Assembly: GCA_051362555.1 (NCBI GenBank)
Contig: CM120648.1
Location: forward strand, 6,382,587 to 6,446,586
DNA: 64,000 nucleotides
Reading direction: 5' to 3'
Origin: Lingula anatina
Taxonomy: Eukaryota > Animalia > Brachiopoda
Part shown: positions 11,525-53,900 of the stretch, piece by piece
How the letters are laid out: the number at the start of each line of letters is the position of its first letter
Numbering within the stretch: position 1 is the stretch's first letter
Notes under the pieces: model-generated
What the model saw: only the letters and a program-made list of their open reading frames with translations
Told to the model about the DNA's origin: nothing
Databases searched by the model: none
Made by a program: the position numbers and the translations under genes

Positions 11525-11525
11525 C

Positions 11526-15826: not shown

Positions 15827-16546
15827 CCCACCTAATGCATTCGGTACTCGGGCCAATGCCAGGACAATACATATAGCTCAAAACCTCACACAGCTCATTG
15901 CTACGCGAAGCAGGATAGTAAAAGACTGTCTCCCTACATGCCGGTCAACTGGTTCCATTGACCAATCCGGCCATTAAACATTATATTAATCCACGTATGG
16001 CTAACAGCAATAACGGCACAACTTGATTATATACCTCGAGCATGATATAACGTTACAAGGACTATATAAGTAACATTGAGGAAACCACATGCCAAGCCAC
16101 AAACAATCAAGTATGCTATACGCATACTAAGTAGGCACATACCATTTACAACACTTAACACTGTTAATAAAACTTACTTATCCCTCACCATGTATCTTGT
16201 TGTTACGGAACAAATCATTTGGGTGGGGAGGAAGTCCGTTCTAGACGTCCTTCCATGGCATCTTTATTGACCCCACCTTCAATAATTGTCAACCTCGCTC
16301 AAGTATCCATCTCAGTATTTTAACAATTTACCACGCCGCTCAGTTATCAAGGTGTTATTGCTCGAGCATCACAGGATGACTCCCGCTCTCGCCACCAACA
16401 CCAACCAATTATTGAACCGAGCAAATAATTTCTTCCTATCTTCTCATATAGCAACTATAAATAACAAATTATTGGCGAAGACTATAATTTCATTTATAGT
16501 GCCATATACTGTCGGGAGTCTCTCTAGCTAGAGCAATAGCACACAT

Positions 16547-21585: not shown

Positions 21586-24500
21586 CTAAATAAAATTGAT
21601 TGAAAGAAAATTTCACAATTCTTTGTGAAGGTCTGCCCCTGAAGAAAACTTATGATCCCTTTTTATATTAAATAAAATTTAGTACCTACAACAGCCTACA
21701 GTATTTAAAGGAGACAGTAATCTGACATATTGTGCTTCCACTACTGATATTTTGGCATGGGTTGATTTTAAATGTGACTGGCTTGTTTCCTAACATAACT
21801 TACTGCAAATTTAACAATTTTTATAAGACTAAAAAATCAACACACAATTTCCGATAAAAACACTGTTCTTTATAAATCGATTTAACTCTGTGGGGATTCG
21901 GGCTGAATACAAACAAATTAACAAGCCTCCTCTTTGCGCTGAGTAGAATACAGAAAAGTTGATGTTTACTTTGGGGGCGTCTCGATAGCCCTAAGGTTCA
22001 TTGGTCCGAAAAATGGTAACTTTTTCATCGTTTTTTTAAATCAAAGGTTCATTGGTCCGAAGGTTCTATAGCGAACATTCGCACCAATGAACTTTCAGAC
22101 TATTGGACCTTCTGAGTATTGCTACGGCCCCATTACTTTTGCAGGTTTGAAACAAGTCGAGGCAAGCTAAACTATTTATCTGATTCCATACTGTTTGATG
22201 GGTCTACACACAATGACAATTTCATTGGGAATGAGCCCTTAGTTTAATTTTTTCTAAAGATCTATTATATATATATATATATATTTTTTTTTTACTTACA
22301 AGCTCATCTTCTGGGTCATTCATGGGGAGCACTCTCTGTTGTAACTGGCCGGTAAACATCTGCATTGTTTGAGGTGAATCTTACCACATAAGAAAGTCCA
22401 AAAATTACAAATACTGTGCTTATATATAATGTTAGTTGGTTAACAAATAAGGAAAGAGGATGGAAATTGTGAATAACAACTGAAAATATTTAAAATAAAA
22501 TAAAACAATAGAATAATGTATTAATAAACCTTTTTTCATAATTCAAACCAAATCAAATATGAATAATAATCGTATCACTTCTTCACCATCTACCTACATC
22601 ACAGATCAAAGGTTTTTCATACATCTTGGCAAAAAGCTTTTTTTAAACCATTATGCAGAATAATTAACAGCTTACCTTTCAAATTAAATCCTGGATAAAA
22701 GGATGAGCCAGCATGATAATGGTTCTGTGAAACTCCCTTTTCATCTACTACCAGTTTTTTTTCTGAGTTCTTATAACATGCTTGAGATTGACCTGGCTCC
22801 TGTTTCAAACATTGCCCTAAACCACCTACAGCGGGAAAAGTGTTGCTATCATTCTCGGGCTTTGTTGCAATCCCATGGCCATATCTTGTCATAAGTAGAA
22901 CGTTTGTTTCCCCATGCTGAAAAGCAATATTTGGATGTGGCTGGAAAGGGGCATTCGGAGGAGGCTGGAAAGGGGCATTCTGAGGGGGCTGGAAAGTGAC
23001 ACTTTGTGGTGGCATGTTTATGCAGTCTCTGTAAGTGGGATCTGTATGTGGATAATCAGTCTGGGGGGCACTGTGCTGTAACCTGGAAATGGTAAAAAAA
23101 AGAAAAATTAAGAACAACACTAATACACTAGCACTCCTATTTCAAAAAGTCTTTAATCATAAAAAAGCCAAGTTTAAAAATTTATGAAAGGTACATGTAA
23201 CTGGTTAAAATACCATCATCAAGTGGATACTAGTACATTCATGTAGCACAGATGATAGGTTTTTTCAGACCAAGGCAATTAATCCAGATACGTGTACCTC
23301 TGGTAGCATGTTTGTTGGTATATACCCAGTAGCTGATATTGACAGTAATACGTTGGGCCAACTGCATCATAACAATATGTGTTTAAATATCGTAACTGCA
23401 ATGCACACTTGTTGGCCCAACGTTGGGCCAAGTTATATGCAATACACAACCCAAAAGTTGTTTCAAATGCGTTTTTTTTTTTTTCTCAAGTGAGAACAAC
23501 ATGTGCTACAGGTAATCTTTTGACCAGATAACTAATGGGTTGTGTACAGTTTTGGTGACGTTCACCCCATAACTGGCAAACTGTATTTTTGTTTTATTTT
23601 AGATATACTGAGTGGCTTTGATTGGTAAAGAGGCAGGTTGCAGGTTGCTTTTTGTTTGTTTGAATATTTTATTTTTTACACATTAGCACTTTCAGTGGCT
23701 TTTATATCCCTAGTTTTTCAGTGTCCATGTTACCTTTAGTACATAATGTAAGAGGGTAAGAGTGATTAATCTGTTTTAAAGCATTATGTAACAGTGCTCA
23801 AAATTGGCCAACACACTACTTGGTGCACTCCTGTCTTTGTAATGTCTGAACACGGTGCGCATGTTTGAATCTCTCCCGTGATTGGTAACTTGAAGGTAAA
23901 AATGTCCACTGTATAATTGGCTCTGATTGGTAAACGTGTACTATCTGACCTTGTATATAAGGTGTGACTTGAAATAAATCGGCCTCTTTTGGGGCTTCTT
24001 TGCGGTCTCTTTTGGCACTTGTGGCACTTGTGGCTCTTATTATTGACTTTGAGACACCAGTAAGTACATTGTTATTTGTACCTTCATAAGGCACTCGGCC
24101 GCAAAGGCGTAACAATATACAGCATTGGTCAAAAAGGTTGTCCCAGTACCATTTCCATGTACTTATATTTACAAATGATCACCCCACAGGTGTAAATTTT
24201 TATAAACGGTGCTTTTTATTCCAGAAACCATGTCTAACATGATAAATGGTTCAGAAAATACAAAATAGTGGTAAAAGTATACACATTTTATACCATTTAG
24301 TCAATTTTATAACAGGTACCCCCTCAAATCCAATGTTTCACTGTGATTTCCACAGATGTAAAGAAATATCTATTAAATTGAAAAGACTCCATCAAATGTC
24401 ACCAAACTTACACACAATTAGCATTAGAATATGCTCGTTAAAGGTCACGTCACGTGCCTAATAGCGTGTATGTCTACCGCGTACTGCAATTATCTCCTGT

Positions 24501-27500
24501 ATGCGGCGCGACAAGCCTTCAACAAGCGTAACAATTCTGTTTTGAGGGATATATAGTCCCATTCATCCTAAAGAGCGTGGCGGAATTGATCCAGATTATT
24601 TGTTAATTGGTTCTCCTCTGCATTGCACATTACAATTAATGCCAGAGATGCTCAGTAGGATTAATATTAGGGCTTAAAGACGGTTTTCCCATCCTCAGAG
24701 CCCTGTGTTTCTGCAACAAATCGCTTGCCAGACGAGAGCTGTGAGCAAGTTCGATGTCACAATGAAACCGGTAGCATCCCTGAAGTCACCTCTTGCAAAT
24801 GGAGTGAGATTCTGCTGAGAATGTTACAGTGAAATGCCCCAGTTACATTTTGTTCAAAAAGGAACAATGTACTTATACCATGGGCTGGGAATGTTCTCCA
24901 AATGCGGACTGAGCTAACACCTCAGGCTATATTATCCAGCACACACCCTTCCAAGAGGCATTTTTCAACATGTCTAGGGACCCTCATTTGACCATCAATG
25001 GGATACAAGAAATAACTTGATTCTGCATCAAAAGCGACTTCCTTCCAGTGATTGATGACCATGTTCAGGTGCCTGTGGGATCACTGAACGTAGCATTCTC
25101 AGCTGATATCTCACTCCATCTTCAAGAACTGATTTTGGGTTAACTCCAGACTTCATCATAGCTGCACATTAGCTCCCACCTCTCGCCTGGCAAGTGATTT
25201 GTTGTAGAAACACAATGCGCTAAGGATGGAACCATCATCTTTAAGCCCTGATATTAACCTTACTAATCAAGTTTGACATGAATTGGAGTGTGCAATGCAG
25301 AGTAGAACCAACACCATAAAAACGAGGATCAACTCCCCTAAGCTGTTTAAGAAGAATGTGACAATATCCCACAAAACAGAATAGTTACCCGTGTTGAAGG
25401 CTTGTCGTGCTGTCTACAGGAGGTAATTGTAGTATGCGGTAGATGCACACGCTAATAGGCACATGGACTTTAACGACCACACCCTAATGCTAATTGTGTG
25501 TGAATTTGGTGACATTTGATGGCGCCTTTTCAATTTAATACACATTTCTTTACATCTGCAGAAATCACAGTGAAACATTGGATTTGAGGGGGTACCTCTT
25601 ATAAATTTTCCTAAATGGTATAAAATGTGTATATTTTCACCACTATTTTGTATTTTTGAACCATTAATCATGTTAGATACGGCATCTGGAATAAAAAGCA
25701 CTATCTAGAACGATTTTAAGCTGTGAAGTTATCATTTGTAAATATTAGTACATGGAAATGGGGGTGGGAGAACCTTTTTGACCAATGTTATATATTTGAG
25801 TACATGATTTGAATTATGTGAGTGCTGACAGCAACATGGCCCAGGAGAGAGCAGCATATGTTTTGACATCGTAAGCAAGTAAGAAACTCTTGGAAGGGCT
25901 TTTATCTTGAAACTCACAGGAAAATGACCAATCTTACAGGTCAAGTTTAAAAATCAGCTTGATTGGTTCAGTTTTGATGAAGTTATGCCCATTTTGTGTA
26001 TGTAACACTAAGTGGTTTTTCCTTTTTTTAACCAATGAAGTCGCCTTCTATCATGAAGTACTACTAATAGCAGTAATGCTTATCCCATTGTGTGGTAATA
26101 TACTATAGCTATGAACTATCTTAAAAGACACATCTATAAATGTAAAGAAGTGTTAATTACGTTACAGATTAGAACTCTTTATAAACTATAGGTTTCTATT
26201 CCTAATAACTCACTATATATAGACAGAACCAATACAAATACAGACAGATTTTAAACATTAAACAATTTATATCTGCATATAACATCTTTAAAATATTCTA
26301 TTTTGTTCTAACATCCTAAAGGTATATCGCTTGGCCATAACTGATGACTTAATAATCTGTGCAATGTGGATTTTCCTTCAGTTTTATTTCAGGTAAAAAT
26401 ACATATAACATTTAACGTCTGCTGGGGGTTCATGTCCGATGTACCCATGTGAAAACTAATAAATCTGATTTTATAACATTTATAAATTTCAATATGAAAG
26501 TGGCCCTTGGTCTTTTACCCATTATCCCTCATTCTAAAAAAAAAATAATAAAAAGACCACTCAAATCGTTACAGTCACTTACTGTGTCAGTGTATCCTGT
26601 ATGGCATTGGCCAAGTGGTTCTGTCCACTTTTTCTCAGACACTTCACAAACAGCGGAAATGCCTCAGGGCCTCTGCGGGGCAAATCTGATAGCAACTGCT
26701 GCACTTTCTGGAGGCGTGTGGGATGAGACTGGAATTGACAACCAATTACATTAATTATAAGAGGCCATTCCCAATGAAACTAAGGGTCTATGTTGGTCGA
26801 TTCAACTCTGCAGAGACTTTATCTGAATGCAAACAGTTAGTAGATAAACAGGCCTCCTCCTGACGTATAGAATAGAAATAAACTGGTAATTATACAAGTA
26901 CATTGGAAACAATCGGAGGGGGGGGGGGGCTAATCTGTAACACTGATTGCATTCATCAAGAGAAGTCTGGAAAGTTGGAATAATTTATTAGCACATTGAC
27001 CCATGAAGTATATGGGAATAGGCCCTAAAAGTGAGAGAGTCTTGGGAGCCTTACAAGGCAGGTCTTTTAAGAAATACTATAACTTTCTGAATACAGTTTC
27101 TGGCTGTAAATTAAAGAAAACCTGCAAAATAAACCAATCACAGATTGAGAAGATCACAATGGGGACAGTGATCACAGTATTTAGTTATGTGCTTTAACTG
27201 ACCCACTTGTCAAGTCTAATTTATATCTTTGTTAATTAGCTCAAACAAATTCTCACATGTACCTATCCTGACGTCAAGACTACAGTTTCGAGCATTCAGT
27301 GTTGGGCTTCCCCTTTGACTGTAGCATGCTCGGTGTGTGCGTGTTTGTGTGTGCGTGTTTAGGGCTTAACATTAAGTGTTGCGTCGTTGTGTTTTGCAAC
27401 CACATCTTTACCAGCAGTTTTCCGACAGTGCAACTGGCTTCATTTTAAATATTTTTCATTTGTTGTGTTTTCCACTGTGTTTTATGGCATTGGCTACTCT

Positions 27501-29960: not shown

Positions 29961-30023
29961 GTATGGACACTCTCTGGGAACCCCAAAATAAGATAATTTT
30001 CGTTCCCCCAAAATCTGTAAAAA

Positions 30024-30958
30024 CACGCTCGGCTGTCACCTTGATTGGATAGTAAACGATTGTCGTAAAATCGCTAAATGATATTAAAACCGGGTGCATA
30101 AACTTGAAAACCACCTACATCAACCTTGGACTGCCACATTAATCCAATACAATGCAAACATAAACTATAACAAGTGGTTAAAGCCTTCAAACCGAATGTC
30201 GTAAAGTCCCCATATACCTCCATAGAGACAATAAAATAGAATGAGCTTCTGAAACAAACCTGATCCAGTTCCAACAGAATAATCGAAATAAAATACTGCC
30301 GGGCATCGGAGCGGCCTAAAACTTGGCACGCTTACCGCTAATACTGCAGGCTACATCATTCCGTCGCTCGTTTGTAAATTCCGTGCATGGCATACGCACA
30401 ATCAAACCGTAAAAAACAAATTCTCGGGGTGTCGTTGGCCAGGTCCACTCTAACCTACCATTACGAAAAAGAAGCCATGCCATTGGACAATGCGACCTCT
30501 GCGGTAACCTCATTTCCTGAATTGGATTGTTGCGTGGACCTAGCCAACGACACCCCGAGAATTTGTTTTTTACGGTTTGATTGTGCGTATGCCATGCACG
30601 GAATTTACAAACGAGCGACGGGATGATGTAGCCTGCAGTATTAGCGGTAAGCGTGCCAAGTTTTAGGCCGCTCCGATGCCCGGCAGTATTTTATTTCGAT
30701 TATTCTGTTGGAACTGGATCAGGTTTGTTTCAGAAGCTCATTCTATTTTATTGTCTCTATGGAGGTATATGGGGACTTTACGACATTCGGTTTGAAGGCT
30801 TTAACCACTTGTTATAGTTTATTTTTGCATTGTATTGGATTAATGTGGTAGTCCAAGGTTGTTGTAGGTGGTTTTCAAGTTTATGCACCCGGTTTTAATA
30901 TCATTTAGCGATTTTACGACAATCGTTTACTATCCAATCAAGGTGACAGCCGAGCGTG
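30024..30958. mobile_element. Foldback (long-TIR) non-autonomous DNA transposon, 935 bp
   Basis: Arms 30024-30448 and 30534-30958 (425 bp each, about five mismatches seen) flank an 85-bp spacer. Ends are CACGCTCGG...CCGAGCGTG. 8-bp TSD TGTAAAAA at 30016-30023 and 30959-30966. Confidence 0.92.
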
Positions 30959-31991
30959 TGTAAAAACTACAACAAAGGGCATAAGGAAAGTGTTCCTTTA
31001 CCGAATGTCAGTCAGGATGGCACCTATTTAATTTTCACACGTTAACAAAATTACTTCCAAGCGGCACTTGTGAGACAGAATTAGGGGGTGCAACCTGATT
31101 GGACAGTGCCATTTGGTCTCTGTAAGACCAGCCAATCAGAGGCATATGAAGTCAGTAACTCAGGAGTGAGTGAGGGCTCTCCGCTCACATCTCTAGAAAA
31201 AAAATCACAACGTTCAGTAGTGCATCTTGGAAAAGTTATTCAAACCCAACCCTATCCCCCCTAATAACTTTTCTCTTAGCTTTTCGCTCTCAACGTAGGC
31301 CTACTTTAGAACGTGATCTTCTTTACGAAAGTCACCTTGTGGCCCCTTGTGGCCCATTTTTTCCTCCAACTTTGCTGAAACTTAAGATTATATCTTAAAA
31401 TGATTTACCATACATGAATATCATTCATATTATAATATTTAACTATATGTAATTTGAATTAGTAGTTTGTGTATTGATCAAAGTGCAAATGTCAATAAAA
31501 TAAATATTTTTTAGAAAAACATTGTTTCTATTGAGTCTGTTTTTTCAGTGCTTAATATTTTATGAACTTAATTTTGTTCGGCAATCTGTTTTCTTTAAAG
31601 TCAAAAATATCCATCTCTTTTATTAATACGTAGGCTAATCTTCATGCGTGATGGTGATCTTTAGCACACAATTAAGACCTCGTGTTAAAATGTTGTCCCA
31701 TTGTCCGGATCCGGCACGAAGGTCGCTGGCAGGTGGTCTGTAACCCTTTATTATCATCCAGATACCGAGAATGAGTTTTTTATAATTATTCAACATCTGT
31801 TTTTGGGCTGATTTAAAACACCGAAAAAAAACCTCGGCCTCGGCGTGATCACGTGGCTCGTTGACGACAATAGTGCCACCAGAGGAGAGAGCCAAGCAGC
31901 GTGTTTAGCTGTCAAACTGAGCTGCATCGTCTGCCTGTAAGATGACTTTTCTGACTTCTGATAGAAGTTCATACTCATTCAAACCTCTTAC

Positions 31992-39548: not shown

Positions 39549-39859
39549 ATGTCCCCACCGACGAAAACAGCCGTCGTCTTGGAGGCCATGCTTGTATTAC
39601 TGGTGGCCCTCCATGGAGGGCAGGCCAGGGGCATGGAGGGCGCCATCGACACGACTCTTAACGCCACCCTGGCGTGCCTCAACATCCCCGGCTTAACGCT
39701 GGCGGTTGTCAAAGACGGGGAGGTGGTCATTTCCAAGGGTTACGGGGTCAAAGACGTGGTCAGCAAAGAGCCAGTGACCAATACTACACTCTTCAACATC
39801 GCGTCCTTGACCAAGGCGTTCGCGGCGACGGTTTTGGCTAATGTCATAAAAAAGAAAAG
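39549..39859 (+). CDS. Beta-lactamase-like exon 1 (signal peptide, SxxK)
   Basis: IPGLTLAVVKDGEVVISKGYG...TLFNIASLTKAF; donor AG|GTAAC. Confidence 0.92.
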
Positions 39860-42800
39860 GTAACATCGTTGCACAGTAACATGCATGTGCGAAGGTGTTA
39901 TATGCCAACAAATGAGATACACCGGATGTAAACCGAAAGTCTTGACTGGACCCCCTTGCTTGGAAATTCTTTAATTTCCCCGGAAACTAGGAAACAAATA
40001 CCGAAACTACGCCTGTGAAAAGTGATATTCGTTTTCCTTTTCATAGGATCGCTTTGAAATGTCAACCAGCAGCTGACGCTATAAGGTAGAAATTGTGAAA
40101 GTGTAGTCGGTTCCGAACGTGTTAAGGTGACGGTTTTACTGAAAAAAAAAAAAAAAAATCCGTAGCAGGAAGAAATTTCCTGTCTTTTCATTTTCTACAA
40201 TAATTTTTTGATTTCGTTTCCGAAATTTCAGTTTTTTTCTTTCAGTTATGACATAGACTCCCCTCTGACGACTTTCGGCGAACTCAAAGAGCTGAAATTT
40301 GTGAATGACCTTTTGACCTCTTACGTGACCGCTAGGGATCTTCTCAGCCACCGCACGGGACTCACGACGTACAACAACATCACAGCCCGGGAGCCACTGG
40401 TCTGCCGCTAGGTGGCTATTAAACAAACCGGAAGTTCGAGAATTTGAATTGGGCAATATTTTTTGAGATTTATAGGGTGTCATAAACGGTGTATTATCTC
40501 GGCTATTAACGTACTTGGGGTTACAATATGTACATTGTCATATTGAGAAATAAATTTCGAATAATGTGAGATGACCCAAAAGTTGATTTACAGCATATTT
40601 AATGTTGAAAAATGAGTTTGAAATCGAAATTTTATTAAAGCTATTACGGAAGTTCGTTTTTGATTTTGATTTTTGTACCTATAGAGGCCTCCGCACAACT
40701 TGAAATTACTACAAGTTGTGGAAAATTTATTCAGCTTTCTGTCAATGTAAGCATGTAAAGAACTTTGCCTTAAGCTGTGAATGGCACAAATCAATTCACG
40801 GCCATGTCAGCCTGAAAACTCTCACTTACGATATCCGCATATAAGCCTCGCTTTGACTTAGTGCTTTCTCATGAGCTTCAGTCTCGTTTTAGTTTTTCCT
40901 TCACACAGTATTACTTATATAGAGCAACTGGGTATTGGGGACAATGAAATAATTTTTTTCTTGGCACTTACCACGGTGCTAATACAAATGAACTTTAACA
41001 TTTTTTTTTCATTGTAGATAAACCTTTTTATTACATGAGGCCAACTGATGAGGGTATTCCTTTCATTAAATATGAAAAATAACAAATGAAAGACAATTTA
41101 CATTTAATCACATTGCTATATATTTTATTTTAATTTTACATAAAATTCAACTAGCCTGAAATATTTTACCAGTGAGACATGTACATTGCAAAATAGTTAT
41201 TTTACATTACATTGTACATTAATTACCCAGTAGGTGATAATTCAATGCTACTTTACTTGATTGGTACACATTTATATATATTTAACCATCTAACACACAA
41301 TTTCCCTTTACACAGTGGACCAGAATTTTTACAAATAATATAATTTCATAAATTTTCCCAAAGATGTCATGTTAATTTTCTTTCAGTGATACCAGGTATC
41401 AATCCATATTTGCATTTGAATAAACTTGTTTTACTTGTATTCTGATAAGTAGATATTATCTATAAGCTACACATATATAAAAAAACCTGCACAGTAAAAA
41501 TAAAACAATGTATTGTTAACTTAGTTGCACATACACTTTTAACTAACTTCATGTGGTTAAAACCTAAATTGATTTCACAAACTGCATTTCTATGTACTGA
41601 TAACCAATAACTATTTATATTAGCAAGAGCACATATTTTTCATTCCTTAGAAGTATCCAAGAGGTTGTGGTGTTCATTGCCACACAGCATTTGGAAATGA
41701 TGGGCGCTTTTGTTATGATAATTGCACGGCAAAAGGAATTATCCTGGTCCCATTCATGCTATTCAAGCCTAGAATAAATAATAGAGTTTTTAAAAGAATA
41801 TCATTAAAAAATTCTAACTACATTTATCAATTGCTCACACACATACACACTGAAATTAATCATAATTTATTGCAATCTTTGTAATAGGTAAACTGTAACA
41901 ATCAATCTTAAACAGCACTATATTTACAATCTTTACCTTAAACTGCACTATTTATACTTAATTCATAACAGTGATTATTAAAAAAACATTTGAAACTGAA
42001 CTTTGGGCAAAGTTGCACACCCATCATAATTCAAAAACCCAATTTGAATCAAGGCATGAAAAAATTAGAAAACACATGCAAGTCAGAGCACCACATCACT
42101 ATCATATGCCCTCATCATTGAAGAGCCTCTTTCATTTAATGTACATACACACATACATATATAATTCACCTTTTTTAAACTTGCATTTTTATGACATTCT
42201 TCTCCTCAAAACCCCCAACCAATGCAATAAAACTTATTTTGTCTTTACATGTCTTTTTTCTAAAAAAATTAACACAATTGATACATTTAACCCCCCCCCC
42301 CCCCCCCCCGCCCCCAGCAAAAAAGACATAATTTACGATTCATATATTTCAAAACATGCCTATGGTTAGTTTACAATACTGTATCTTTCACAACTACTGG
42401 TACCAATGCCCCCCCCCCCCCTCCCCACCGCTTTGCAAACAAGTATATACTGGTACACCACGATATGCACATACGTATGTACGTGTATGCAGGTTGGATG
42501 ACAATGTTATTTCGCAATCCACTTCATCCTTTTCACATTAAAACACGAAGAAATTGCATGAGAAGCCAAGATTCAAACATTTCACTTATACGGTGACATT
42601 CATTCCATGCATGAGACCAGAAAGCCACTGCCATCACTCGATCAACTAAATGATAGGTACGCAGTACCCGGCACGGTGAATATACAGCTTGTTGGAAATG
42701 TTGAAATTCTACAAATTACAGACCATCGCACATCTTAAAAATTTGATATGTTCAAAAAATATTGCCAAACTATGAAAAAACAGGAACAGATAAAGAAAAA

Positions 42801-45800
42801 AACCCTTAAGCTGCATTTGGCACAGTTCAAAAGTCAATGTTTACAATGACGTTTTGTGTGCGGCCATTTTGCTAATCGCCAGTAACTTTAGAGAATACTC
42901 AGTGAAATCGTTACACGAAGACTTATTCGGTGTATAAAATGTAACTTAAGCATATACTGTATTGTCCCGTCAAATTCATTAGTATTTAAATCTACTGTTC
43001 ATTCCACAAACACATGTACAACTTACCTGTCTCTATGCCTTCGTCTCCCGCCAAATTTTTTTGGGGCTACCACTCCACGTTTTGAAAACGAGGCCAAATC
43101 TAATATTTTCCAAAATAACCGTCAAATCAGCCAGTGGCTCCCGGGCTGTCAGACTGCAAGATGAATTGTCTTTGGAGATTATCGGCAGGTATGTTGGGAA
43201 ATTTAAAAAAAATGTTCAATAGTATACGACTATACCTAAAAATAAACACTCTTGCAGAGATTGCAGCATGTGCGTTGTGATAGGCTTGATAACTTTTATT
43301 TTGATAAAAAAAAGAAATAGGTGCCACTTATTAATTAAGGATGAAGTAATCGATACACACGAATGAAATCCCTCCTCTGCTATCAATTTAATTTCTAAAT
43401 GTTTCGACAACTAACATTTCTGAACAACTTTTTTCTCCAGCAAGCTGCAATTCTTCAATACAACCTACCCATTTAGAACCCGCTATCTCTACAACAACAA
43501 CATGTACGGACTGGCCGGTTACGTGACCGAACGCTTGGCCGGTAAGAAGTGGGAGGACGCTGTCCGGAGCGAGATTCTCATCCCCTTGGGGATGTCCAGT
43601 ACCTCCTTTGTGACCACTGCGGACTTTGGCTCATTAAATGTGGCCACACCATATTTCTATGACGACGCCAGTCCAGGGGGGCTTAGGAAAGGGTCGTTTG
43701 ATCTTATAAGGTGAGGGCGTTAAATTATATATATTGTAACGCCCCCCCCCCCCCCCCTCCGTTTTGCATTCCAATACAACATTTTCACCTAATCTCTTCA
43801 GAAATTCATTTTGGAAGGGTTAGCGGTTGCGTACCTGCCCTCCACCTTTATTTGGTCCCCCCTACTACAATTATTTCCGTCAATTGCAAGAAACTTTAAT
43901 CTAAAGATGACAAAAGGACCGATACAGTGCATCGACGATGCATGGAAGCCGCCATATATGCCACTTCATGCTGATCTACGCCGTACGCGAAGCTCGTGCT
44001 TCGCGCGACTGATGACGTCGCCGCGTCAGAGTATAAATAGAGTGGCGCGCTGTGTGAAAAGGAGCGTTTTACAGATTCGACAACAGTGGGAGCGTTTTAC
44101 AGATTCGAGTAAAGTGAGAGCGTTTTTACAGATTCAAGTACAGACTGAGACCGGACTAAGAAGAGACTTATCAGTAAGCGTCAGGGCAGCCCCTAGGGGC
44201 TAGCCCGCTCCATTTTCTTCTCATATATTTTAGGGGGGGTCTTATTTTAGAGATTTAAATGTTTGGTAGATTGAACGGTAGATTATAACCGTTGCTAGAT
44301 TGACGTAGAAGTTTTACGGAAACTTTATTCCCATGTAGCCCCAGTTTTCATTACTAACTAGAACAGTTTATACTGAGTCCGATTATGGACACAGACTAGT
44401 TAAGTTTGTTATTGCTACTGCAGTTGTTTTATTGACAGCAGTAACTATTTAAGTTCGTTATTTTCACAGCCGTCCATTCCTTGACAGCAGTGAGTAGTTA
44501 AGGCTAAGCGTAGGACAGTTTTTATTTATCATTTCATTTTCGCTTATTTTCCTTTCTAACCATTCCATGTTGTCATAAAATGACCACGTCATTCCAGTCA
44601 TAGTTAAGTCATGTTGGCCTCGGAGACAACGTCAATTATACTAGGTTGTCATCTAGTGACCACGTCATTCCAGTCATAGTTAAGTTTGGTTGTACATGTC
44701 TTTTAGGGACAACGTCATGTTGTCGTCAGAGACCACGTCAGTCATTCCATCTTGTCACCTAATGACCACGTCATTCCAGTCATAGTTAAGTTTGGTTGTC
44801 TTTTAGGGACAACGTCATGTTGTCGTCAATGACAACGTCAGTCATTCCATGTTGTCATCTAATGACCACGTCATTTCGGTCATAGTTAGGTTGGGTTGTC
44901 TTTTAGGGACAACGTCATGTTGTCGTCAATGACAACGTCAGTCATTCCATGTTGTCATCTAGTGACCACGTCATTCCTGTCATAGTTAAGTTATGTTGTC
45001 TTTTAGGGACAACGTCATGTTGTCGTCAGAGACAACGTCTGTCACTCCATGTTGTCATCTAATGGCCACGTCATTTCGGTCATAGTTAAGTTAAGTTATC
45101 TTTTAGGGACAACGTTATGTTGTCGTCAGAGACAACGTCCGTCACTCCATGTTGTCATCTAATGACCACGTCATTCCAGTCATAGTTAAGTTAGGTTGTC
45201 TTTTAGGGACAACGTCATGTTGTCGTCAGAGACAACGTCAGTCATTCCATGTTGTCATCTAGTGACCACGTCATTCCAGTCATAGTTAAGTTAGGTTGTC
45301 TTTTAGGGACAACGTCATGTCGTTGTCAGAGACAACGTCAGTCATTCCATGTTGTCATCTAGTGACCACGTCATTTCAGTCATAGTTAAGGCATGTTGGT
45401 TGTTTTAGGGATAACGTCGTAGGGTCATATTTCTCACTTATAATTAAGCTTAGTTTAACTACAGCGTAACTTAACTCTAGGTCCTTGTTTTGAGTTATCT
45501 GCTAATGGAATCAGTGTTCAGTGTTACACTGGTATATGGGGGTAGGATTTCAGTGTACGAAAGATAAGTTGTTACGATAGTATATGGGGGGAGAGATTTA
45601 ACCGAATTTATCTAAAGTTTAAAGACTGTGTACGGGAGGGCGGTTTTTAATGAAATAATGTTATGCACGCCGGCGAGCTATGTCGGCTATGGATAGACAA
45701 GGTCGGCATAGTGAGTCTTTCAGAGGGAGTTAGGGACCTCTTTAAATTTCTCTAGCTAGTGTAGGCAATGCTAAGATATAAAACCATTGTAAGAAGTAAA

Positions 45801-48800
45801 TTTCATAGTTGAATAATCAGTGTTTAGCACAGTGCATAGTGGGAGAGTTACTCTCCGGTTAAGGTTACTAATCAACGTGATTTGAGTTTCTTTGAGTTAA
45901 CAGTTGGCTGGGCGGAACCTCTTCAGTGTCTTCCGGGCCATGGGCTTATGCAGCATAACGGTCTGGGACCCCTTGGTAGAGCTGTGCCAAGGATGTTGCA
46001 ATTATTGTGTATGACGACCCCGGGTGAAAAGCCGGCCGGGTCCGGGGCGCCATAGTAGAGCGGACGTCCACTTGGGTCTGATGCCGAGTTCCAGCCCAAG
46101 AGTGTTCCTCCCGTGTGAAGGGAGTCGAGTTACCCCGTGTGAAGGGGCAGATTTTGCTTTTGTTTCTTTAGTTCAGTGTGTCCATCCGGAGGAGTCGAGT
46201 GGATGCCAGCCGACTGTGACCTTAGAAACGGAGACGTGGTGAAGATTGTCCAACCCCTGCCACGGGACGTAAGGCCGTAGCGGGCCGATCCCTTACGGTG
46301 CTTCCCTGCGAACCCCCGTCCCCGCCCATGCGAGTTCGGAGAATTCACACGGAACAGACGGTGCTCAGGGAGTGGAAAATGTGGGCTTGTGATATGCGAA
46401 GATTAACCTTGCTCTTTCGGTGCCAACGATCACTGGTCCCGAGTCAAAGGGTTTCAGCGCCGCCAAGATCTCCACTGATTGGTTTGAAGGCCGCGGCGAT
46501 CCCCCGCGCCCTCGTCACTGGTGACCGGAAAGATTGTCAGTATTGAGTTGGTATCACTTGACCCGCACCCTTGCGCATTTCTGGTAGAGAGTATCGCCGC
46601 ATCCACATCAGAGCTGGTGAAGCTGGAATCGGGCTGTCGGGAGAGGGTGCACACCGAGAGCTGACTTGGATTCCCCTAGCGACTGCGGCCGTGCGATGCG
46701 GTATGAACTCCCTACCATGAGGACATCATCTTGAAAAGAGAATTACAGAACGGACAGCACCACGGAGATGAGTGACACTACGCGAGTCACGACGCTACCA
46801 TAAGAAGACTACGGACGGTAATTCATATGAGAAGATACGCGATCTACGGGAACCGCTGAGCTACCCATAAGAAGAGTACGCGAGCCACGACGCTACCATA
46901 AGATTGACTACGTACGATAATTCATATGAGAAGATACGCGATCAACGGGAACCGCTGCGCTACCCATAAGAAGGCTACGCGAGCCACGTCGCTACCATAA
47001 GATTGACCACGTACGATAATCCATATGAGAAGATACGCGATCTACGGGAACCGCTGAGCTACCCATAAGAAGAGTACGCGAGCCACGACGCTACCATAAG
47101 ATTGACCACGTATGATAATCCATATGAGAAGATACGCGATCTACGGGAACCGCTGCGCTACCCATAAGAAGACTACGCAAGCCACGACGCTACCAGAAAT
47201 GTCTTCGTTGTCTTCGTTTTACTACCCAGATGCTGTCGTCGCGCGCAACATTTGAAATTTATGAACTTTAATGACCATAAGTCACGTCAAAGGATACTTG
47301 AAAATGCATGAACTATTGTGGCCATAAGTCACGTTTATATTGCATGAATTTTTGTATTCAATGTTTGGAGATTTAATAATCATATTGGAAATGTAATGCA
47401 TGTCTTTTTATTTCCGAAGGTTGGGGATAGACTTTCCCCAAGGTACAGGCAACATCAATCCCACACCGCGTCGGTGTGTCGTCGCCGATTCGAGGCGGAC
47501 GGCCGCGTCGCGTTACATTGGTGGCAGCGGTGGGATGTACCAATTACCTTCGGAATTAAGGCATGTAAGCTTGCGTCTACAAAATTCAACTGAATCAATT
47601 CCTTTAATCTCAGAATTCCAAACAATGGTATTGAATAACAGAAGCCGTACTGCAGATCGAGGCTGTGGAGAAGACCTGGGAAAAACCCATCCAACGGGAA
47701 GGAGCACGTGGTATAGAATGACGATTCGAAACCATAGATGAAGATGGCATGAAATGAAGTGTGAGGCGGAAGTTTCCCTACTCCTCTCTTGGTGTCACTC
47801 TGTCTTGCTCAAGTTACCCAAAGCTCTCAGCTCCCCTGAGGGTGGAGGGCGAGGCGAGCTATCCAAAAGTCAGGGCAGCCAGGCCACTAGAAACTTCGTT
47901 TTCCTTAGAGCCCGGACGTACCGGAGAAGCCCCTACTGGTGGAACGGGATTAAAGATGGTATCAAGATGGGAGGCGTGAGATCGTCCGCAACAAGGAAGA
48001 AAGTCAATGAATTAACAACTAAGCCTTACTTTGATTCGGGAGAATCAAATTTAAAAGGTTGGGGGCAGTGTAACGCCCCCCCCCCCCCCCTCCGTTTTGC
48101 ATTCCAATACAACATTTTCACCTAATCTCTTCAGAAATTCATTTTGGAAGGGTTAGCGGTTGCGTACCTGCCCTCCACCTTTATTTGGTCCCCCCTACTA
48201 CAATTATTTCCGTCAATTGCAAGAAACTTTAATCTAAAGATGACAAAAGGACCGATACAGTGCATCGACGATGCATGGAAGCCGCCATATATGCCACTTC
48301 ATGCTGATCTACGCCGTACGCGAAGCTCGTGCTTCGCGCGACTGATGACGTCGCCGCGTCAGAGTATAAATAGAGTGGCGCGCTGTGTGAAAAGGAGCGT
48401 TTTACAGATTCGACAACAGTGGGAGCGTTTTACAGATTCGAGTAAAGTGAGAGCGTTTTTACAGATTCAAGTACAGACTGAGACCGGACTAAGAAGAGAC
48501 TTATCAGTAAGCGTCAGGGCAGCCCCTAGGGGCTAGCCCGCTCCATTTTCTTCTCATATATTTTAGGGGGGGTCTTATTTTAGAGATTTAAATGTTTGGT
48601 AGATTGAACGGTAGATTATAACCGTTGCTAGATTGACGTAGAAGTTTTACGGAAACTTTATTCCCATGTAGCCCCAGTTTTCATTACTAACTAGAACAGT
48701 TTATACTGAGTCCGATTATGGACACAGACTAGTTAAGTTTGTTATTGCTACTGCAGTTGTTTTATTGACAGCAGTAACTATTTAAGTTCGTTATTTTCAC

Positions 48801-51800
48801 AGCCGTCCATTCCTTGACAGCAGTGAGTAGTTAAGGCTAAGCGTAGGACAGTTTTTATTTATCATTTCATTTTCGCTTATTTTCCTTTCTAACCATTCCA
48901 TGTTGTCATAAAATGACCACGTCATTCCAGTCATAGTTAAGTCATGTTGGCCTCGGAGACAACGTCAATTATACTAGGTTGTCATCTAGTGACCACGTCA
49001 TTCCAGTCATAGTTAAGTTTGGTTGTACATGTCTTTTAGGGACAACGTCATGTTGTCGTCAGAGACCACGTCAGTCATTCCATCTTGTCACCTAATGACC
49101 ACGTCATTCCAGTCATAGTTAAGTTTGGTTGTCTTTTAGGGACAACGTCATGTTGTCGTCAATGACAACGTCAGTCATTCCATGTTGTCATCTAATGACC
49201 ACGTCATTTCGGTCATAGTTAGGTTGGGTTGTCTTTTAGGGACAACGTCATGTTGTCGTCAATGACAACGTCAGTCATTCCATGTTGTCATCTAGTGACC
49301 ACGTCATTCCTGTCATAGTTAAGTTATGTTGTCTTTTAGGGACAACGTCATGTTGTCGTCAGAGACAACGTCTGTCACTCCATGTTGTCATCTAATGGCC
49401 ACGTCATTTCGGTCATAGTTAAGTTAAGTTATCTTTTAGGGACAACGTTATGTTGTCGTCAGAGACAACGTCCGTCACTCCATGTTGTCATCTAATGACC
49501 ACGTCATTCCAGTCATAGTTAAGTTAGGTTGTCTTTTAGGGACAACGTCATGTTGTCGTCAGAGACAACGTCAGTCATTCCATGTTGTCATCTAGTGACC
49601 ACGTCATTCCAGTCATAGTTAAGTTAGGTTGTCTTTTAGGGACAACGTCATGTCGTTGTCAGAGACAACGTCAGTCATTCCATGTTGTCATCTAGTGACC
49701 ACGTCATTTCAGTCATAGTTAAGGCATGTTGGTTGTTTTAGGGATAACGTCGTAGGGTCATATTTCTCACTTATAATTAAGCTTAGTTTAACTACAGCGT
49801 AACTTAACTCTAGGTCCTTGTTTTGAGTTATCTGCTAATGGAATCAGTGTTCAGTGTTACACTGGTATATGGGGGTAGGATTTCAGTGTACGAAAGATAA
49901 GTTGTTACGATAGTATATGGGGGGAGAGATTTAACCGAATTTATCTAAAGTTTAAAGACTGTGTACGGGAGGGCGGTTTTTAATGAAATAATGTTATGCA
50001 CGCCGGCGAGCTATGTCGGCTATGGATAGACAAGGTCGGCATAGTGAGTCTTTCAGAGGGAGTTAGGGACCTCTTTAAATTTCTCTAGCTAGTGTAGGCA
50101 ATGCTAAGATATAAAACCATTGTAAGAAGTAAATTTCATAGTTGAATAATCAGTGTTTAGCACAGTGCATAGTGGGAGAGTTACTCTCCGGTTAAGGTTA
50201 CTAATCAACGTGATTTGAGTTTCTTTGAGTTAACAGTTGGCTGGGCGGAACCTCTTCAGTGTCTTCCGGGCCATGGGCTTATGCAGCATAACGGTCTGGG
50301 ACCCCTTGGTAGAGCTGTGCCAAGGATGTTGCAATTATTGTGTATGACGACCCCGGGTGAAAAGCCGGCCGGGTCCGGGGCGCCATAGTAGAGCGGACGT
50401 CCACTTGGGTCTGATGCCGAGTTCCAGCCCAAGAGTGTTCCTCCCGTGTGAAGGGAGTCGAGTTACCCCGTGTGAAGGGGCAGATTTTGCTTTTGTTTCT
50501 TTAGTTCAGTGTGTCCATCCGGAGGAGTCGAGTGGATGCCAGCCGACTGTGACCTTAGAAACGGAGACGTGGTGAAGATTGTCCAACCCCTGCCACGGGA
50601 CGTAAGGCCGTAGCGGGCCGATCCCTTACGGTGCTTCCCTGCGAACCCCCGTCCCCGCCCATGCGAGTTCGGAGAATTCACACGGAACAGACGGTGCTCA
50701 GGGAGTGGAAAATGTGGGCTTGTGATATGCGAAGATTAACCTTGCTCTTTCGGTGCCAACGATCACTGGTCCCGAGTCAAAGGGTTTCAGCGCCGCCAAG
50801 ATCTCCACTGATTGGTTTGAAGGCCGCGGCGATCCCCCGCGCCCTCGTCACTGGTGACCGGAAAGATTGTCAGTATTGAGTTGGTATCACTTGACCCGCA
50901 CCCTTGCGCATTTCTGGTAGAGAGTATCGCCGCATCCACATCAGAGCTGGTGAAGCTGGAATCGGGCTGTCGGGAGAGGGTGCACACCGAGAGCTGACTT
51001 GGATTCCCCTAGCGACTGCGGCCGTGCGATGCGGTATGAACTCCCTACCATGAGGACATCATCTTGAAAAGAGAATTACAGAACGGACAGCACCACGGAG
51101 ATGAGTGACACTACGCGAGTCACGACGCTACCATAAGAAGACTACGGACGGTAATTCATATGAGAAGATACGCGATCTACGGGAACCGCTGAGCTACCCA
51201 TAAGAAGAGTACGCGAGCCACGACGCTACCATAAGATTGACTACGTACGATAATTCATATGAGAAGATACGCGATCAACGGGAACCGCTGCGCTACCCAT
51301 AAGAAGGCTACGCGAGCCACGTCGCTACCATAAGATTGACCACGTACGATAATCCATATGAGAAGATACGCGATCTACGGGAACCGCTGAGCTACCCATA
51401 AGAAGAGTACGCGAGCCACGACGCTACCATAAGATTGACCACGTATGATAATCCATATGAGAAGATACGCGATCTACGGGAACCGCTGCGCTACCCATAA
51501 GAAGACTACGCAAGCCACGACGCTACCAGAAATGTCTTCGTTGTCTTCGTTTTACTACCCAGATGCTGTCGTCGCGCGCAACATTTGAAATTTATGAACT
51601 TTAATGACCATAAGTCACGTCAAAGGATACTTGAAAATGCATGAACTATTGTGGCCATAAGTCACGTTTATATTGCATGAATTTTTGTATTCAATGTTTG
51701 GAGATTTAATAATCATATTGGAAATGTAATGCATGTCTTTTTATTTCCGAAGGTTGGGGATAGACTTTCCCCAAGGTACAGGCAACATCAATCCCACACC

Positions 51801-53900
51801 GCGTCGGTGTGTCGTCGCCGATTCGAGGCGGACGGCCGCGTCGCGTTACAATATGTTTTATTTTTTTGTTTATTTTTTGTGTATCAATACAACAACAACA
51901 TACTAAGATAATAGTAGACTGAAATCTTATGCTGGATCTTACGCTGAAACGGAGATAACGACGTTTCGACCTTATCACAAGGACTTCTGATAGTGAGTTG
52001 TCACCGGTGTGAACCAGTGGCGTAAAGACTAATTGTTTAATACTTTAGGTTATTTTTTCTGCTGGTAGACATATCATATTGTGTTAGGTGTGCCAAATGC
52101 ACGTATAATTTCCCCATCAGGAAGAACTGGCCGTAGCTGAGAGACGTGCTTTTTTCAGTCATAAACTGCTTAAAGCAACTTAAACCTCTTAGAGATTTTC
52201 AGCTAGTTTTTCACAGAAATGCCGTTTTAAAATGTTTTAGCGTTCGTTAATGTTAAAAACCAAATTTTTATCCGTTTAATAACGTATAATTTTAGAGTTT
52301 AAGACCAGTGTCGTTTTCTGGGCCGGTCAGAATGCAATCTCCTGCAAACTGTCCTATCAGCAAGTATATGTAGTACAATGGTTTTTCAACTAACAATGTT
52401 ACATAATTTTAATTAAAAAAAAAACGAGATAAAAGGAGAGACGCACGATGCTCAACGATTCAAAAATTCACCATAGTTTTCTAAAAAAGGTTTCAACAAC
52501 TTTCAACAATATGTTTTCATTCTAGAACCTGGTTCCGCAACTCACCATCCGGAGCCATTCTCACCAACGCCGCGGACATGTCCAAGTGGCTCAAGTTTCA
52601 CCTGTCTAAGGGAAAGGGTCCTGACGGGTCCCAGGTGGTGCCGAAGTCGGTCCTAGAAGACACTTACCGTCCCCAGATTCCAGCCATATCGGGCCAGGAT
52701 GTGTACCTCAATCGGCCCACCACTCCTGTGACCTTTGATTACGCCGAGTACGCATGTGGGTGGCGTACAGGGTTTTACAGAGGTAATTTTTGTATTTTCA
52801 GTTATACCATGTAGGCCTACGTTTGAAAATGTCTCAAAATCACTTTTTTAATGTCTGCATATCCTGCAAAACTACAATTCAGACCGTGAAAAAAAGATAA
52901 AACTAAATTATTACAACTTAGAAATATTGATTCGTGTGTTTAGGAAAGTTGCTTTTTGTTATGGCGCAAAAATAAATCCCGGAAAGGATGCATTTGACCC
53001 TTTGTCAGTGCCTTCCACAATGTTGCATGTCTGTTCAATCCATTTCATTGGCATTTTATTATCATTATTATTTTTAATGGTTTAGTAGTAATTTTGAAAG
53101 CTAATTCTTAGTGAAATAAGACTCGCAAAATAAGAATTAAATGACTGTTCCTTTTTTAAAATTAGGATAATGTCCGTCAGTGACATTTGTGATCGTTGTT
53201 CATATCGCCAGTGAGTGGTTTCACTGTATTTCTAGGGTATCCCATCATCACTCATACTGGGACATCCTGGGGCTTCTCCTCCATGCTGGTTCTCCTTCCT
53301 GTCAAGGACATCGGCGTCTATTTCACCTTCAACACCCGGGAAAACGGCAGCCTCACGCGACGGGCACTAATGTCTTTCATCCTCGACGCGGTGATGGAGG
53401 AAACGCCGTGGCTAAACGCGTCAACTATCTGTTCTTTCCCATCCCCGTTTCGACCGCGACCGACCCAGGCGCCAACTACTAAGACGCCAGGCACGGCTGC
53501 CCGCCCTTTGGAAAGTTACACTGGAGTGTACGAGCACCCCCTTTTTGGGAAAATAACGATATCTCACAACGATACAGATACGTTTCTTACAATGGCGTAC
53601 GGCGCTGTTACAAGATGGCGGTTGTATTCAGACGCTTCCGCCGAGGTGTTTTACGGTAGAGGTGACGGGGACGCTTGGTCGTTTCCGATCTCTGGTATGA
53701 CATTTAAGAGCATTTACAATAAAGCTGGGGATATCGATAGCGTCACAGTACCTACGTTTGAGGCTAGAGATCCTCCGACTTTTGTTAAAGAGGGAGCAAG
53801 GCCGACATCAACCTCTTCGTCCGGGGGTGAAGGACTTCCACGCACCCAAGCAGCAGTTTTCCTTGTCATAGTGTTAGATTTACTCACTTTTGCCTTTTAA
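39549..53900 (+). CDS. Secreted serine beta-lactamase / peptidase S12 family protein with DUF3471-like C-terminal domain and probable GPI signal (gigasin-6/flp-like); exon 2 disrupted in this haplotype
   Basis: Exons 39549-39859, 40246-40382 + 43152-43188, 43441-43710, 52526-52782 and 53236-53900 total 1677 nt (558 aa) with consistent phases. Motifs: SLTK (SxxK), LLSHRTG, YNN (YxN), HTG. Hydrophobic N- and C-termini. Confidence 0.9.
40246..40382 (+). CDS. Beta-lactamase-like exon 2, 5' part
   Basis: ttcag acceptor; YDIDSP...TARDLLSHRTGLTTYNNI; interrupted by the TIR element. Confidence 0.9.
40383..43148. mobile_element. 2766-bp TIR DNA transposon inserted in coding exon 2 (PIF/Harbinger-like TNA TSD)
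   Basis: Perfect 18-bp TIR CAGCCCGGGAGCCACTGG / CCAGTGGCTCCCGGGCTG; TSD TCA at 40380-40382 and 43149-43151. Removing it restores YNNI-RLQDELSLEIIG. No transposase ORF recognised. Confidence 0.92.
43152..43188 (+). CDS. Beta-lactamase-like exon 2, 3' part
   Basis: (R)LQDELSLEIIG then AG|GTATGT donor in phase 2, matching exon 3. Confidence 0.88.
43441..43710 (+). CDS. Beta-lactamase-like exon 3 (YxN motif)
   Basis: KLQFFNTTYPFRTRYLYNNNMYGLAGYVTERLAG...ILIPLGMSST; donor GTGAGG. Confidence 0.92.
44009..44140 (+). promoter_or_regulatory. Putative LTR promoter: CRE-like TGACGTC, TATAAATA (44032), then three GAGCGTTTTACAGATTC repeats
   Basis: Motifs read directly; function inferred. Confidence 0.55.
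44565..45420 (+). repeat. 100-bp tandem array inside the LTR (copy at 48898-49753)
   Basis: TTTTAGGGACAACG at 44701, 44801, 44901, 45001, 45101, 45201 and 45301. Confidence 0.95.
46776..47196 (+). repeat. 99-bp tandem array inside the LTR (copy at 51109-51529)
   Basis: CATATGAGAAGATACGCGATC at 46824, 46923, 47022 and 47121. Confidence 0.95.
47519..47536 (+). other. Primer-binding site complementary to the tRNA-Leu 3' end
   Basis: TGGTGGCAGCGGTGGGAT, 1 nt after the LTR end, is the reverse complement of ...ATCCCACCGCTGCCACCA (tRNA-Leu, NAG anticodon class). Confidence 0.9.
48031..48068 (+). other. Gypsy-type 3' hairpin and polypurine tract
   Basis: TTGATTCGGGAGAATCAA hairpin, then AAAAGGTTGGGGGCAG abutting the 3' LTR TG. 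Confidence 0.8.
48069..51850 (+). repeat. 3' LTR (3782 bp)
   Basis: Direct repeat of 43735-47517. Confidence 0.95.
52526..52782 (+). CDS. Beta-lactamase-like exon 4
   Basis: TWFRNSPSGAILTNAADMSKWLKFHL...YACGWRTGFYRG; consensus splice sites. Confidence 0.92.
53236..53900 (+). CDS. Beta-lactamase-like exon 5 (HTG triad, DUF3471-like domain, hydrophobic tail)
   Basis: YPIITHTGTSWGF...YTGVYEHPLFGKITI...SSSGGEGLPRTQAAVFLVIVLDLLTFAF*. Confidence 0.92.

What the first reader, a model, noticed from the sequence alone, without database searches (positions are those of the whole stretch)
43735..51850. Very young, almost all-LTR retroelement: two 3.78-kb LTRs around a 551-bp core
Seen: TGTAACGC/GCGTTACA ends, ATAT TSD, an exact 18-nt tRNA-Leu PBS and a PPT. 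The LTRs appear identical apart from one C in a homopolymer, and no gag/pol is present. Known: TRIMs have short LTRs and a short core; LARDs have long LTRs and a long non-coding core; both are described mostly in plants. This element pairs LARD-sized LTRs with a TRIM-sized core, so about 93% of it is LTR. Inference: a recently mobile non-autonomous parasite of a Gypsy partner that keeps its information (promoter, two satellites, a structured RNA domain) in the LTR. It may be an undescribed class in animals.
Basis: partly seen in the sequence, partly recalled or inferred. Interest (0 to 1): 0.85.

Follow-up and report, generated by a model that had tools for sequence, protein, structure and literature searches.

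The report
Giant-LTR protein-less retrotransposon in host intron
An 8.1-kb jumping gene with no recognisable protein gene, 93% of it two near-identical 3.8-kb end repeats, sits in an intron of an invertebrate gene; it likely spreads by borrowing another retrotransposon's enzymes, and the same build is already described in sugar beet, so it is likely only the animal example that is new.

Summary
LTR1 is 43735-47517, the core 47518-48068 (551 bp) and LTR2 48069-51850. The LTRs differ by one C in a C-run; the ends are 8-bp inverted repeats; an ATAT duplication, a Leu-type PBS and a PPT are present; no gag/pol was found. The element lies in an intron of an open-frame beta-lactamase-family host gene. 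Contigs from two other DNA runs hold the short core as one piece at about 2-3 haplotype depths, one variant 1.3% different. The short form is therefore likely older than this insertion and was copied, not deleted in place. The LTR has roughly 11-43 copies and other insertions also abut ATAT. Gypsy elements share the end and PBS motif, but the partner was not identified. The claim of an undescribed class fails: 11 sugar-beet families have 3.35-4.6-kb LTRs around 331-593-bp cores (PMC13570524). I found no animal report this extreme in 9 searches. The only strong non-repeat fold straddles the LTR end and PBS, not the LTR middle. Spanning long reads and an empty allele were not shown.

The parts
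43731..43734 (+). Left target-site duplication (ATAT), 20 bases into the host intron
43735..47517 (+). 5' LTR, 3783 bp, 8-bp terminal inverted repeats
44032..44039 (+). TATA-like box; candidate promoter (inferred, start site not mapped); a second candidate lies at 45777
44062..44140 (+). Tandem array, 28 bp x 2.8
44608..45418 (+). Tandem array, 100 bp x 8, 90% matches; folds better than shuffles (z about -3 to -4) through its repeats
45900..46776 (+). GC-rich LTR middle: no unusual fold, no unusual open frame, no family match
46777..47195 (+). Tandem array, 99 bp x 4.2, 93% matches
47400..47565 (+). Predicted long stem pairing the LTR end with the PBS and leader; forms in the 5' LTR context (z about -6), not in the 3' context (z -0.5)
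47518..48068 (+). Core, 551 bp; no Pfam or protein-search match; one frame has a single stop in 183 codons
47519..47536 (+). Primer binding site, Leu-type
47807..47888 (+). Block shared with a more abundant relative that goes on differently on both sides; 47888 is a likely deletion or recombination joint
   Evidence: tables 3, 4, 7
48031..48068 (+). PPT-proximal block that other internal regions also join; includes the purine tract 48053-48068
48069..51850 (+). 3' LTR, 3782 bp
51851..51854 (+). Right target-site duplication (ATAT)
43445..43710 (+). Host exon upstream of the insertion (beta-lactamase family, PF00144); splice donor at 43711
52526..52784 (+). Host exon downstream of the insertion (end approximate); continues the upstream exon in frame
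53229..53900 (+). Last host exon (DUF3471); best protein hit is a brachiopod protein, 44% identical

Best explanation
This is a protein-less LTR retrotransposon with 3.8-kb LTRs and a 551-bp core, inserted in a host intron, and it likely belongs to a small non-autonomous subfamily that is likely copied through RNA by the proteins of an unidentified Ty3/Gypsy partner. Shown: the anatomy, the intron position, an LTR family of some tens of copies, the short core as continuous DNA in two other runs in two variants, and other LTR ends abutting ATAT. Inferred: the core is what remained of a longer internal region after one or more deletions or recombinations (leader next to the PBS, a middle block, the PPT end); a Pol II transcript starts in the 5' LTR and ends in the 3' LTR; it is packaged in the partner's particle, primed by tRNA-Leu, and integrated by an integrase that prefers ATAT and makes 4-bp duplications. 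Predicted: the stem that pairs the LTR end with the leader forms only at the 5' LTR and would present the PBS and mask the 5' copy of the 3'-end signal.
For: LTR pair with 0 substitutions in 3782 bases; upper 95% age about 40,000-400,000 years or generations at assumed rates of 1e-8 to 1e-9. X2 contig 47655-47984, 0 differences, depth 106.9; X1 contig 47714-48021, 4 differences, depth 117. Host-flank contigs have median depth 44 (X1, 6 records) and 47 (X2, 5 records, merged ones left out), so the core stands at about 2.6 and 2.3 haplotype depths. Four differences in 308 bases have P about 1e-4 if X1's core were an allele of an insertion as young as this LTR pair. LTR depth about 14-43 (X1), 11-25 (X2), 16-39 (X5) haplotype depths. 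LTR-end contigs that read through ATAT and then leave the window: 3 in X1, 2 in X3, 2 in X5. LTR-to-PBS joint present in X2, X3, X5. 25 metagenome loci share the LTR end and PBS motif; 3 of 3 pol frames scanned have the RT-RNase H-integrase order of Gypsy. Fold z about -6 in the 5' context against -0.5 in the 3' context. Same build in 11 sugar-beet families.
Against: No read or contig spans both LTRs, and no listed contig shows this locus's junction or an empty allele (tables were cut). The depths are summed contig means, which the tool says are no copy number, and 2-3 haplotype depths would also fit one homozygous locus. X2 and X5 carry a flank haplotype identical to the window and may not be independent of it, which leaves X1 as the one clearly independent holder laid on the core. 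X1's core could be an older allele if the LTR pair was homogenised by conversion or polishing; against X1's own flank divergence (0.43%) its four core differences give only P 0.045. No autonomous partner was found; the 25 loci share only the 25-base motif. RNA support is thin: 10 and 15 reads, and these could be host pre-mRNA or other copies. Of 9 variant sites mapped on the predicted stem, 2 keep a pair, 3 break one, 3 are unpaired and 1 is an insertion at a paired base.
Confidence: 0.75

Rival explanations
1. A full-length element inserted here, lost its inside once by deletion, and the short form never moved.
For: Other members with different internal regions exist (loose ends at 47807, 47888, 48031). 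Core depth of 2-3 haplotypes fits one homozygous locus. Internally deleted single copies with 2-kb LTRs are listed for Culex (cqgypsy_2.2).
Against: X1's short core differs by 4 in 308 bases while the LTR pair differs by 0 in 3782; two of those four letters are shared with the longer relative and two are not, which points to two sub-lineages of the short core.
Confidence: 0.09
2. The element is real but older, and LTR identity comes from gene conversion or from assembly polishing of two similar repeats; in the extreme the short form is a collapsed assembly.
For: No spanning reads were available. At several LTR sites all contigs laid from X1 and X2 carry another letter than the window, which shows how much the contigs collapse variants.
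Against: The short core is continuous in short-read contigs of two runs; both LTRs share minority letters and full array structure, and CpG is not depleted in the LTR (observed/expected 1.07 against 0.61 in the rest of the window).
Confidence: 0.07
3. A new class of animal element whose working cargo (an RNA or small protein) is carried inside the LTR.
For: 3.8-kb LTRs against about 150-790 bp in the three motif-sharing Gypsy families that could be measured; a 136-codon open frame at 43793-44203 (P 0.018 in its region, uncorrected for five regions); one core frame with a single stop (P 0.01).
Against: No Rfam match, no Pfam match, no protein relative of the core frame, no fold in the LTR middle; insertions and deletions in other copies do not keep the core frame (table 4); 35% of the LTR is plain tandem repeat; the build is known from plants.
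Confidence: 0.05
4. Short-core copies spread at the DNA level (unequal crossing-over, tandem arrays, segmental duplication), not through RNA.
For: Tandem LTR-linked arrays are common in such families (table) and occur among the motif-sharing loci (L010, L022).
Against: This copy has two identical LTRs, exact ends and a 4-bp duplication in unique host sequence, the marks of integrase insertion.
Confidence: 0.04

Closest known systems
[quoted passage not shown]
   Same: LTR 3352-4600 bp, core 331-593 bp by subtraction, length/(2 x LTR) 1.05-1.08, no coding domain, TGTA/TACA ends, 1-18 full copies, no partner found. TRIM-120 is 3852/8297; this element is 3783/8116, ratio 1.073.
   Different: Plant host, Met-type PBS; here an invertebrate host, Leu-type PBS, 4-bp ATAT duplication. 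No sequence comparison was made; likeness is of build, likely convergent.
ta-TRIM of taeniid cestodes with candidate partner lennie (PMC4558846)
   Same: Animal, non-coding, Leu-tRNA PBS that begins with the same letters, core about 590 bp, mostly 4-bp duplications in Echinococcus.
   Different: LTRs about 198 bp; old and massively expressed, whereas this element has 3.8-kb LTRs, is young and gave few RNA reads.
Osvaldo-lineage Gypsy elements and their deleted copies (Culex, PMC3286476); Woot of Tribolium
   Same: Long LTRs in animals (997-2137 bp); cqgypsy_2.2 is 5491 bp with 2054/2057-bp LTRs, 75% LTR. Woot's 3.6-kb LTRs are recalled; only its citation was seen.
   Different: Osvaldo PBS is invariably Lys in that paper; the deleted copy keeps coding fragments and is not shown to be mobile.
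LARDs (for example Dasheng, Sukkula) and classical TRIMs, including biv-TRIM, Helenus and Ajax
   Same: Non-coding, LTR-PBS-PPT, moved in trans; animal Helenus makes 4-bp duplications and is tied to Gypsy partners.
   Different: TRIMs are under 1 kb with 100-250-bp repeats; LARDs are over 4 kb with a long inner domain (recalled). No tRNA or 5S part was found in this LTR.

Membership tests
Non-autonomous LTR retrotransposon (broad sense, PMC13570524) | Two matching LTRs with TG...CA ends and target-site duplication | tested here: met
Non-autonomous LTR retrotransposon (broad sense, PMC13570524) | PBS behind the 5' LTR and PPT before the 3' LTR | tested here: met
   Leu assignment of the 12-nt motif
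Non-autonomous LTR retrotransposon (broad sense, PMC13570524) | No gag/pol coding capacity | tested here: met
Non-autonomous LTR retrotransposon (broad sense, PMC13570524) | More than one independent insertion of the same short form | tested here: inconclusive
   Short core in two variants in other runs at 2-3 haplotype depths, but no second copy seen with its flanks
Non-autonomous LTR retrotransposon (broad sense, PMC13570524) | Moved in trans by an autonomous partner | not testable with these tools
   No genome held; partner not found
TRIM (classical) | Total length under about 1 kb, repeats of 100-250 bp | tested here: not met
   8116 bp, LTR 3783 bp; definition
LARD | Total length over 4 kb, non-coding | tested here: met
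   8116 bp; definition
LARD | Long, conserved non-coding inner domain (recalled from the original description) | tested here: not met
   Core is 551 bp
TRIMp3 (Cassandra, Helenus, Ajax) | tRNA- or 5S-derived sequence in the LTR | tested here: not met
   No Rfam match at E up to 1; no tRNA
Osvaldo lineage | tRNA-Lys PBS | tested here: not met
   Leu-type PBS against invariant Lys
Ty3/Gypsy superfamily | pol order PR-RT-RH-INT and RT phylogeny | not testable with these tools
   The element has no pol; only motif-sharing loci show the order

The most novel reading that the evidence does not exclude
It is the first animal counterpart of the plant giant-LTR, mini-core retrotransposons: a long-lived parasite lineage whose 3.8-kb LTR is its own and is not shared with its helper (relatives share only the PPT end and first LTR bases), transcribed from the TATA box near the LTR's start to a 3' end near 47350-47400, giving an R region of about 3.3 kb whose 5' end signal is hidden by the LTR-leader stem.
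Probability: 0.25. Interest if true: 0.58.

Novelty: new member of a known kind. Interest (0 to 1): 0.38.

Why it matters
It extends a build described in a plant in 2026 to an invertebrate and shows a blind spot: protein-based searches miss it, and finders that demand 5 kb or more between LTRs drop it (such a filter is stated in PMC13524379). A young copy in an intron of an open-frame gene, growing that intron from 695 to 8815 bases 20 bases from the splice donor, is a handy test case for presence/absence polymorphism, splicing effects and solo-LTR formation. It also offers a direct test of how a very long LTR avoids ending its own transcript at the 5' copy. It does not reveal a new mechanism of mobility.

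Tried and rejected
Exact-pattern scans of viral contigs found nothing. None of the 25 metagenome loci matched LTR or core beyond the motif by blastn, tblastx or tblastn. The core's nearly open frame found no relative among longer proteins (weak test) or among 1.84 billion representatives. Rfam and ARAGORN were blank. Structure in the LTR middle was rejected; coding remnants in 45419-47517 were rejected. The two long arrays are unrelated to each other and LTR plus core match nothing else in the window. No RNA holder was listed, which is no evidence either way. The empty allele and this locus's junction were looked for but the listed rows (24 of 93 loose ends, 32 of 260 pieces) did not show either; nothing is concluded. 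The bacterial promoter scan is irrelevant. The Atlas gave no answer for the host exon. The Woot paper is not held and a text search for its LTR length was blank. Earlier scan notes held nothing on this genome or sequence. Osvaldo membership was considered for the long LTRs and dropped on the PBS type.

Full report
1. Observation. Self-comparison of the window gives one 3783-column match, 43735-47517 against 48069-51850, with no substitution and one gap, a C in the C-run after the first seven bases. The core is 551 bp. The ends are 8-bp inverted repeats and ATAT stands on both sides. An 18-base PBS starts one base behind LTR1 and a 16-base tract with 13 purines precedes LTR2. The 12-base start of the PBS is typed as tRNA-Leu in 10 of the 12 supplement rows of PMC13524379 that carry it, each with one mismatch to that paper's reference tRNA, and as Thr in 2. 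LTRs make up 93.2% of the element. Each LTR holds three tandem arrays, 35% of its length. None of the 6 element frames among 13 proteins scanned has a Pfam match; Rfam and ARAGORN are blank.

2. Setting. The element lies on the sense strand in an intron of a host gene of the beta-lactamase family. Five exons match one brachiopod protein in order at 41-58% identity, which points to an invertebrate, likely lophotrochozoan, host (inference from a single hit). The donor is at 43711 and the acceptor ends at 52525; the two exons continue in frame without a stop. The intron is 8815 bases with the element and 695 without it, and the duplication begins 20 bases into the intron.

3. Is the short form mobile? 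No genome is held, so I used public runs. Nine DNA runs of one organism, from three studies, hold 54-60% of the sampled words of flank plus LTR1 plus core. Laid on 47200-48890, X2 has a contig over 47655-47984 with no difference at depth 106.9, and X1 a contig over 47714-48021 with 4 differences at depth 117. Both bridge 47807 and 47888, where a more abundant relative leaves the core. Host-flank contigs have median depths of 44 in X1 (6 listed records; the 61.2 record and the other-locus record left out) and 47 in X2 (5 listed records; three at 77-98 left out as merged), so the short core stands at about 2.6 and 2.3 haplotype depths and the LTR at about 11-43. The tool warns that such sums are no copy number, so these are rough. 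The stronger point is presence: a short core 1.3% different exists, while this element's LTRs have not diverged at all. If X1's core were an allele of this insertion, four differences would have P about 1e-4. The short core is therefore likely older than this insertion and was copied into it. Limits: X2 and X5 carry a flank haplotype identical to the window and may be kin of its source; conversion or polishing could hide LTR age; against X1's flank divergence of 0.43% the core difference is only mildly high (P 0.045); no listed piece spans the element, this locus's junction or an empty allele.

4. The family. Contigs that end the LTR, read on through ATAT and then leave the window number 3 in X1, 2 in X3 and 2 in X5; at the bare LTR end X2, X3 and X5 list only the PBS (24 of 93 loose ends shown). 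This indicates other insertions and a preference for ATAT. Depth falls from the PBS into the core (X1: 427 at 47573, 230 at 47631, 117 beyond 47714), other internal regions join at 48031, a variant of 47807-47888 stands at depth 208 in X1 and 812 in X2, and one contig per run shares the PPT end and first LTR bases but goes on with another LTR. So the core is likely a mosaic remnant, members with other insides exist, and a relative with a different LTR shares its PPT end. Which of them encodes pol is unknown. Whether all LTR copies are 3.8 kb was not tested, as only the LTR ends were laid.

5. Partner lineage. The LTR end plus PBS motif occurs in 25 metagenome loci and in no viral contig. Of 10 frames from 5 loci scanned, 3 of 3 pol frames have RT, RNase H, then integrase, 2 have a gag zinc knuckle and 5 have no family. 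Their LTRs, measurable in three families, are about 150-790 bp, and none resembles this element beyond the motif. A Ty3/Gypsy helper is thus likely but unnamed.

6. RNA and structure. Two RNA runs gave 10 and 15 reads from about 6 in 100 of each run, nearly all in one direction, which is the element's sense strand if the libraries are of the common stranded kind. They may be other copies or host pre-mRNA. A sliding fold finds one strong non-repeat signal, at the LTR end: 47400-47565 folds at z -5.9, pairing LTR bases with the PBS and leader. The same LTR bases followed by host DNA at the 3' LTR give z -0.5. The GC-rich middle gives z +0.34. Natural variants give no clear support for the stem: 2 keep a pair, 3 break one, 3 are unpaired, 1 is an insertion. 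One core frame has a single stop in 183 codons (P 0.01 over six frames), but it has no protein relative and length variants in other copies do not keep it; it is either chance or a decayed remnant.

7. Mechanism. Most likely (0.75): transcription from the 5' LTR through PBS, core and PPT to the 3' LTR; packaging by a Gypsy partner; tRNA-Leu priming; integration at ATAT. These steps follow from the standard LTR cycle (as set out in PMC4558846) and are inferred, not shown. The start site is unmapped. If it follows the TATA box at 44032 and the RNA ends near 47350-47400, as a handful of X15 reads hint, R would be about 3.3 kb and the 5'-only stem would be a way to skip the first end signal; this is a prediction.

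8. Comparison with the known. PMC13570524 (abstract, sections 3, 25, 42, passages, and parts 1, 3, 4 of 43 of supplement 1; its second supplement was too large to read) states that short inner regions are common in families with LTRs of 2.1 kb or more and lists 11 families, TRIM-116 to -126, with 3352-4600-bp LTRs and ratios of 1.05-1.08, plus TRIM-95 and -97 at 2.1-2.3 kb. This element's ratio is 1.073. The authors call TRIM and LARD ends of a continuum. In animals: ta-TRIM has a Leu PBS and a 590-bp core but 198-bp LTRs (PMC4558846, passages); biv-TRIM, Helenus and Ajax are short (PMC6934838, passages; PMC10886601, abstract and passages); Culex has long-LTR Osvaldo elements with a deleted copy that is 75% LTR (PMC3286476, passages). 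Long LTRs with a short inside favour solo-LTR formation (10.1101/710657, passages). Woot's 3.6-kb LTRs are recalled; only the citation was seen (PMC2397513, passages). Nine searches showed no animal family with LTRs over 3 kb around a core under 1 kb; the library lacks most subscription papers and Repbase, so this is weak evidence of novelty.

9. Verdict. Real, young, likely mobile, and a new member of a known kind: works like a non-autonomous LTR retrotransposon; not a classical TRIM, not a LARD in the strict sense, not Osvaldo, not TRIMp3. Interest 0.38.

Noticed in passing
window 12508-15876: DIRS/Ngaro-like retroelement: gag-like frame with a weak CCCH match, a 666-codon RT-RNase H frame and a 336-codon frame that looks like a tyrosine recombinase (last label recalled, no Pfam match).
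   Followed up: partly
window 18446-19084: Tc3-type transposase remnant.
   Followed up: no
window 30023-30959 and 24114-25796: A 937-bp self-complementary repeat (94%) and an inverted pair of about 710 bp (81%); the first resembles 11168-11532.
   Followed up: no
window 4413-6786 and 8257-9917: 146-bp and 160-bp tandem arrays, possibly Helentron-borne (label recalled).
   Followed up: no
window 39594-53900: Five-exon beta-lactamase-family plus DUF3471 host gene, collinear with a brachiopod protein at 41-58% identity.
   Followed up: partly
window 53314-53507: X1, X2 and X5 each list two versions, one near the window and one with 11 differences: a paralogue or widely shared haplotypes.
   Followed up: no
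window 51945-51988: A short high-copy repeat in the host intron that breaks contigs in all four runs.
   Followed up: no
L001:6503-7978, L002:8440-9537, L025:5638-6909: Leu-PBS Gypsy elements carry an extra frame of 366-492 codons behind pol with no Pfam match.
   Followed up: partly
L009 and L020: Two loci with the same LTR end: in L009 the PBS is followed directly by integrase pieces (internal deletion), in L020 by an unrelated 185-codon frame.
   Followed up: no
window 43735-47517: The LTR has no AATAAA or ATTAAA on the sense strand, so its 3'-end signal is non-canonical; X15 reads pile at 47200-47313 and fade by 47427, a weak hint of the RNA end.
   Followed up: partly
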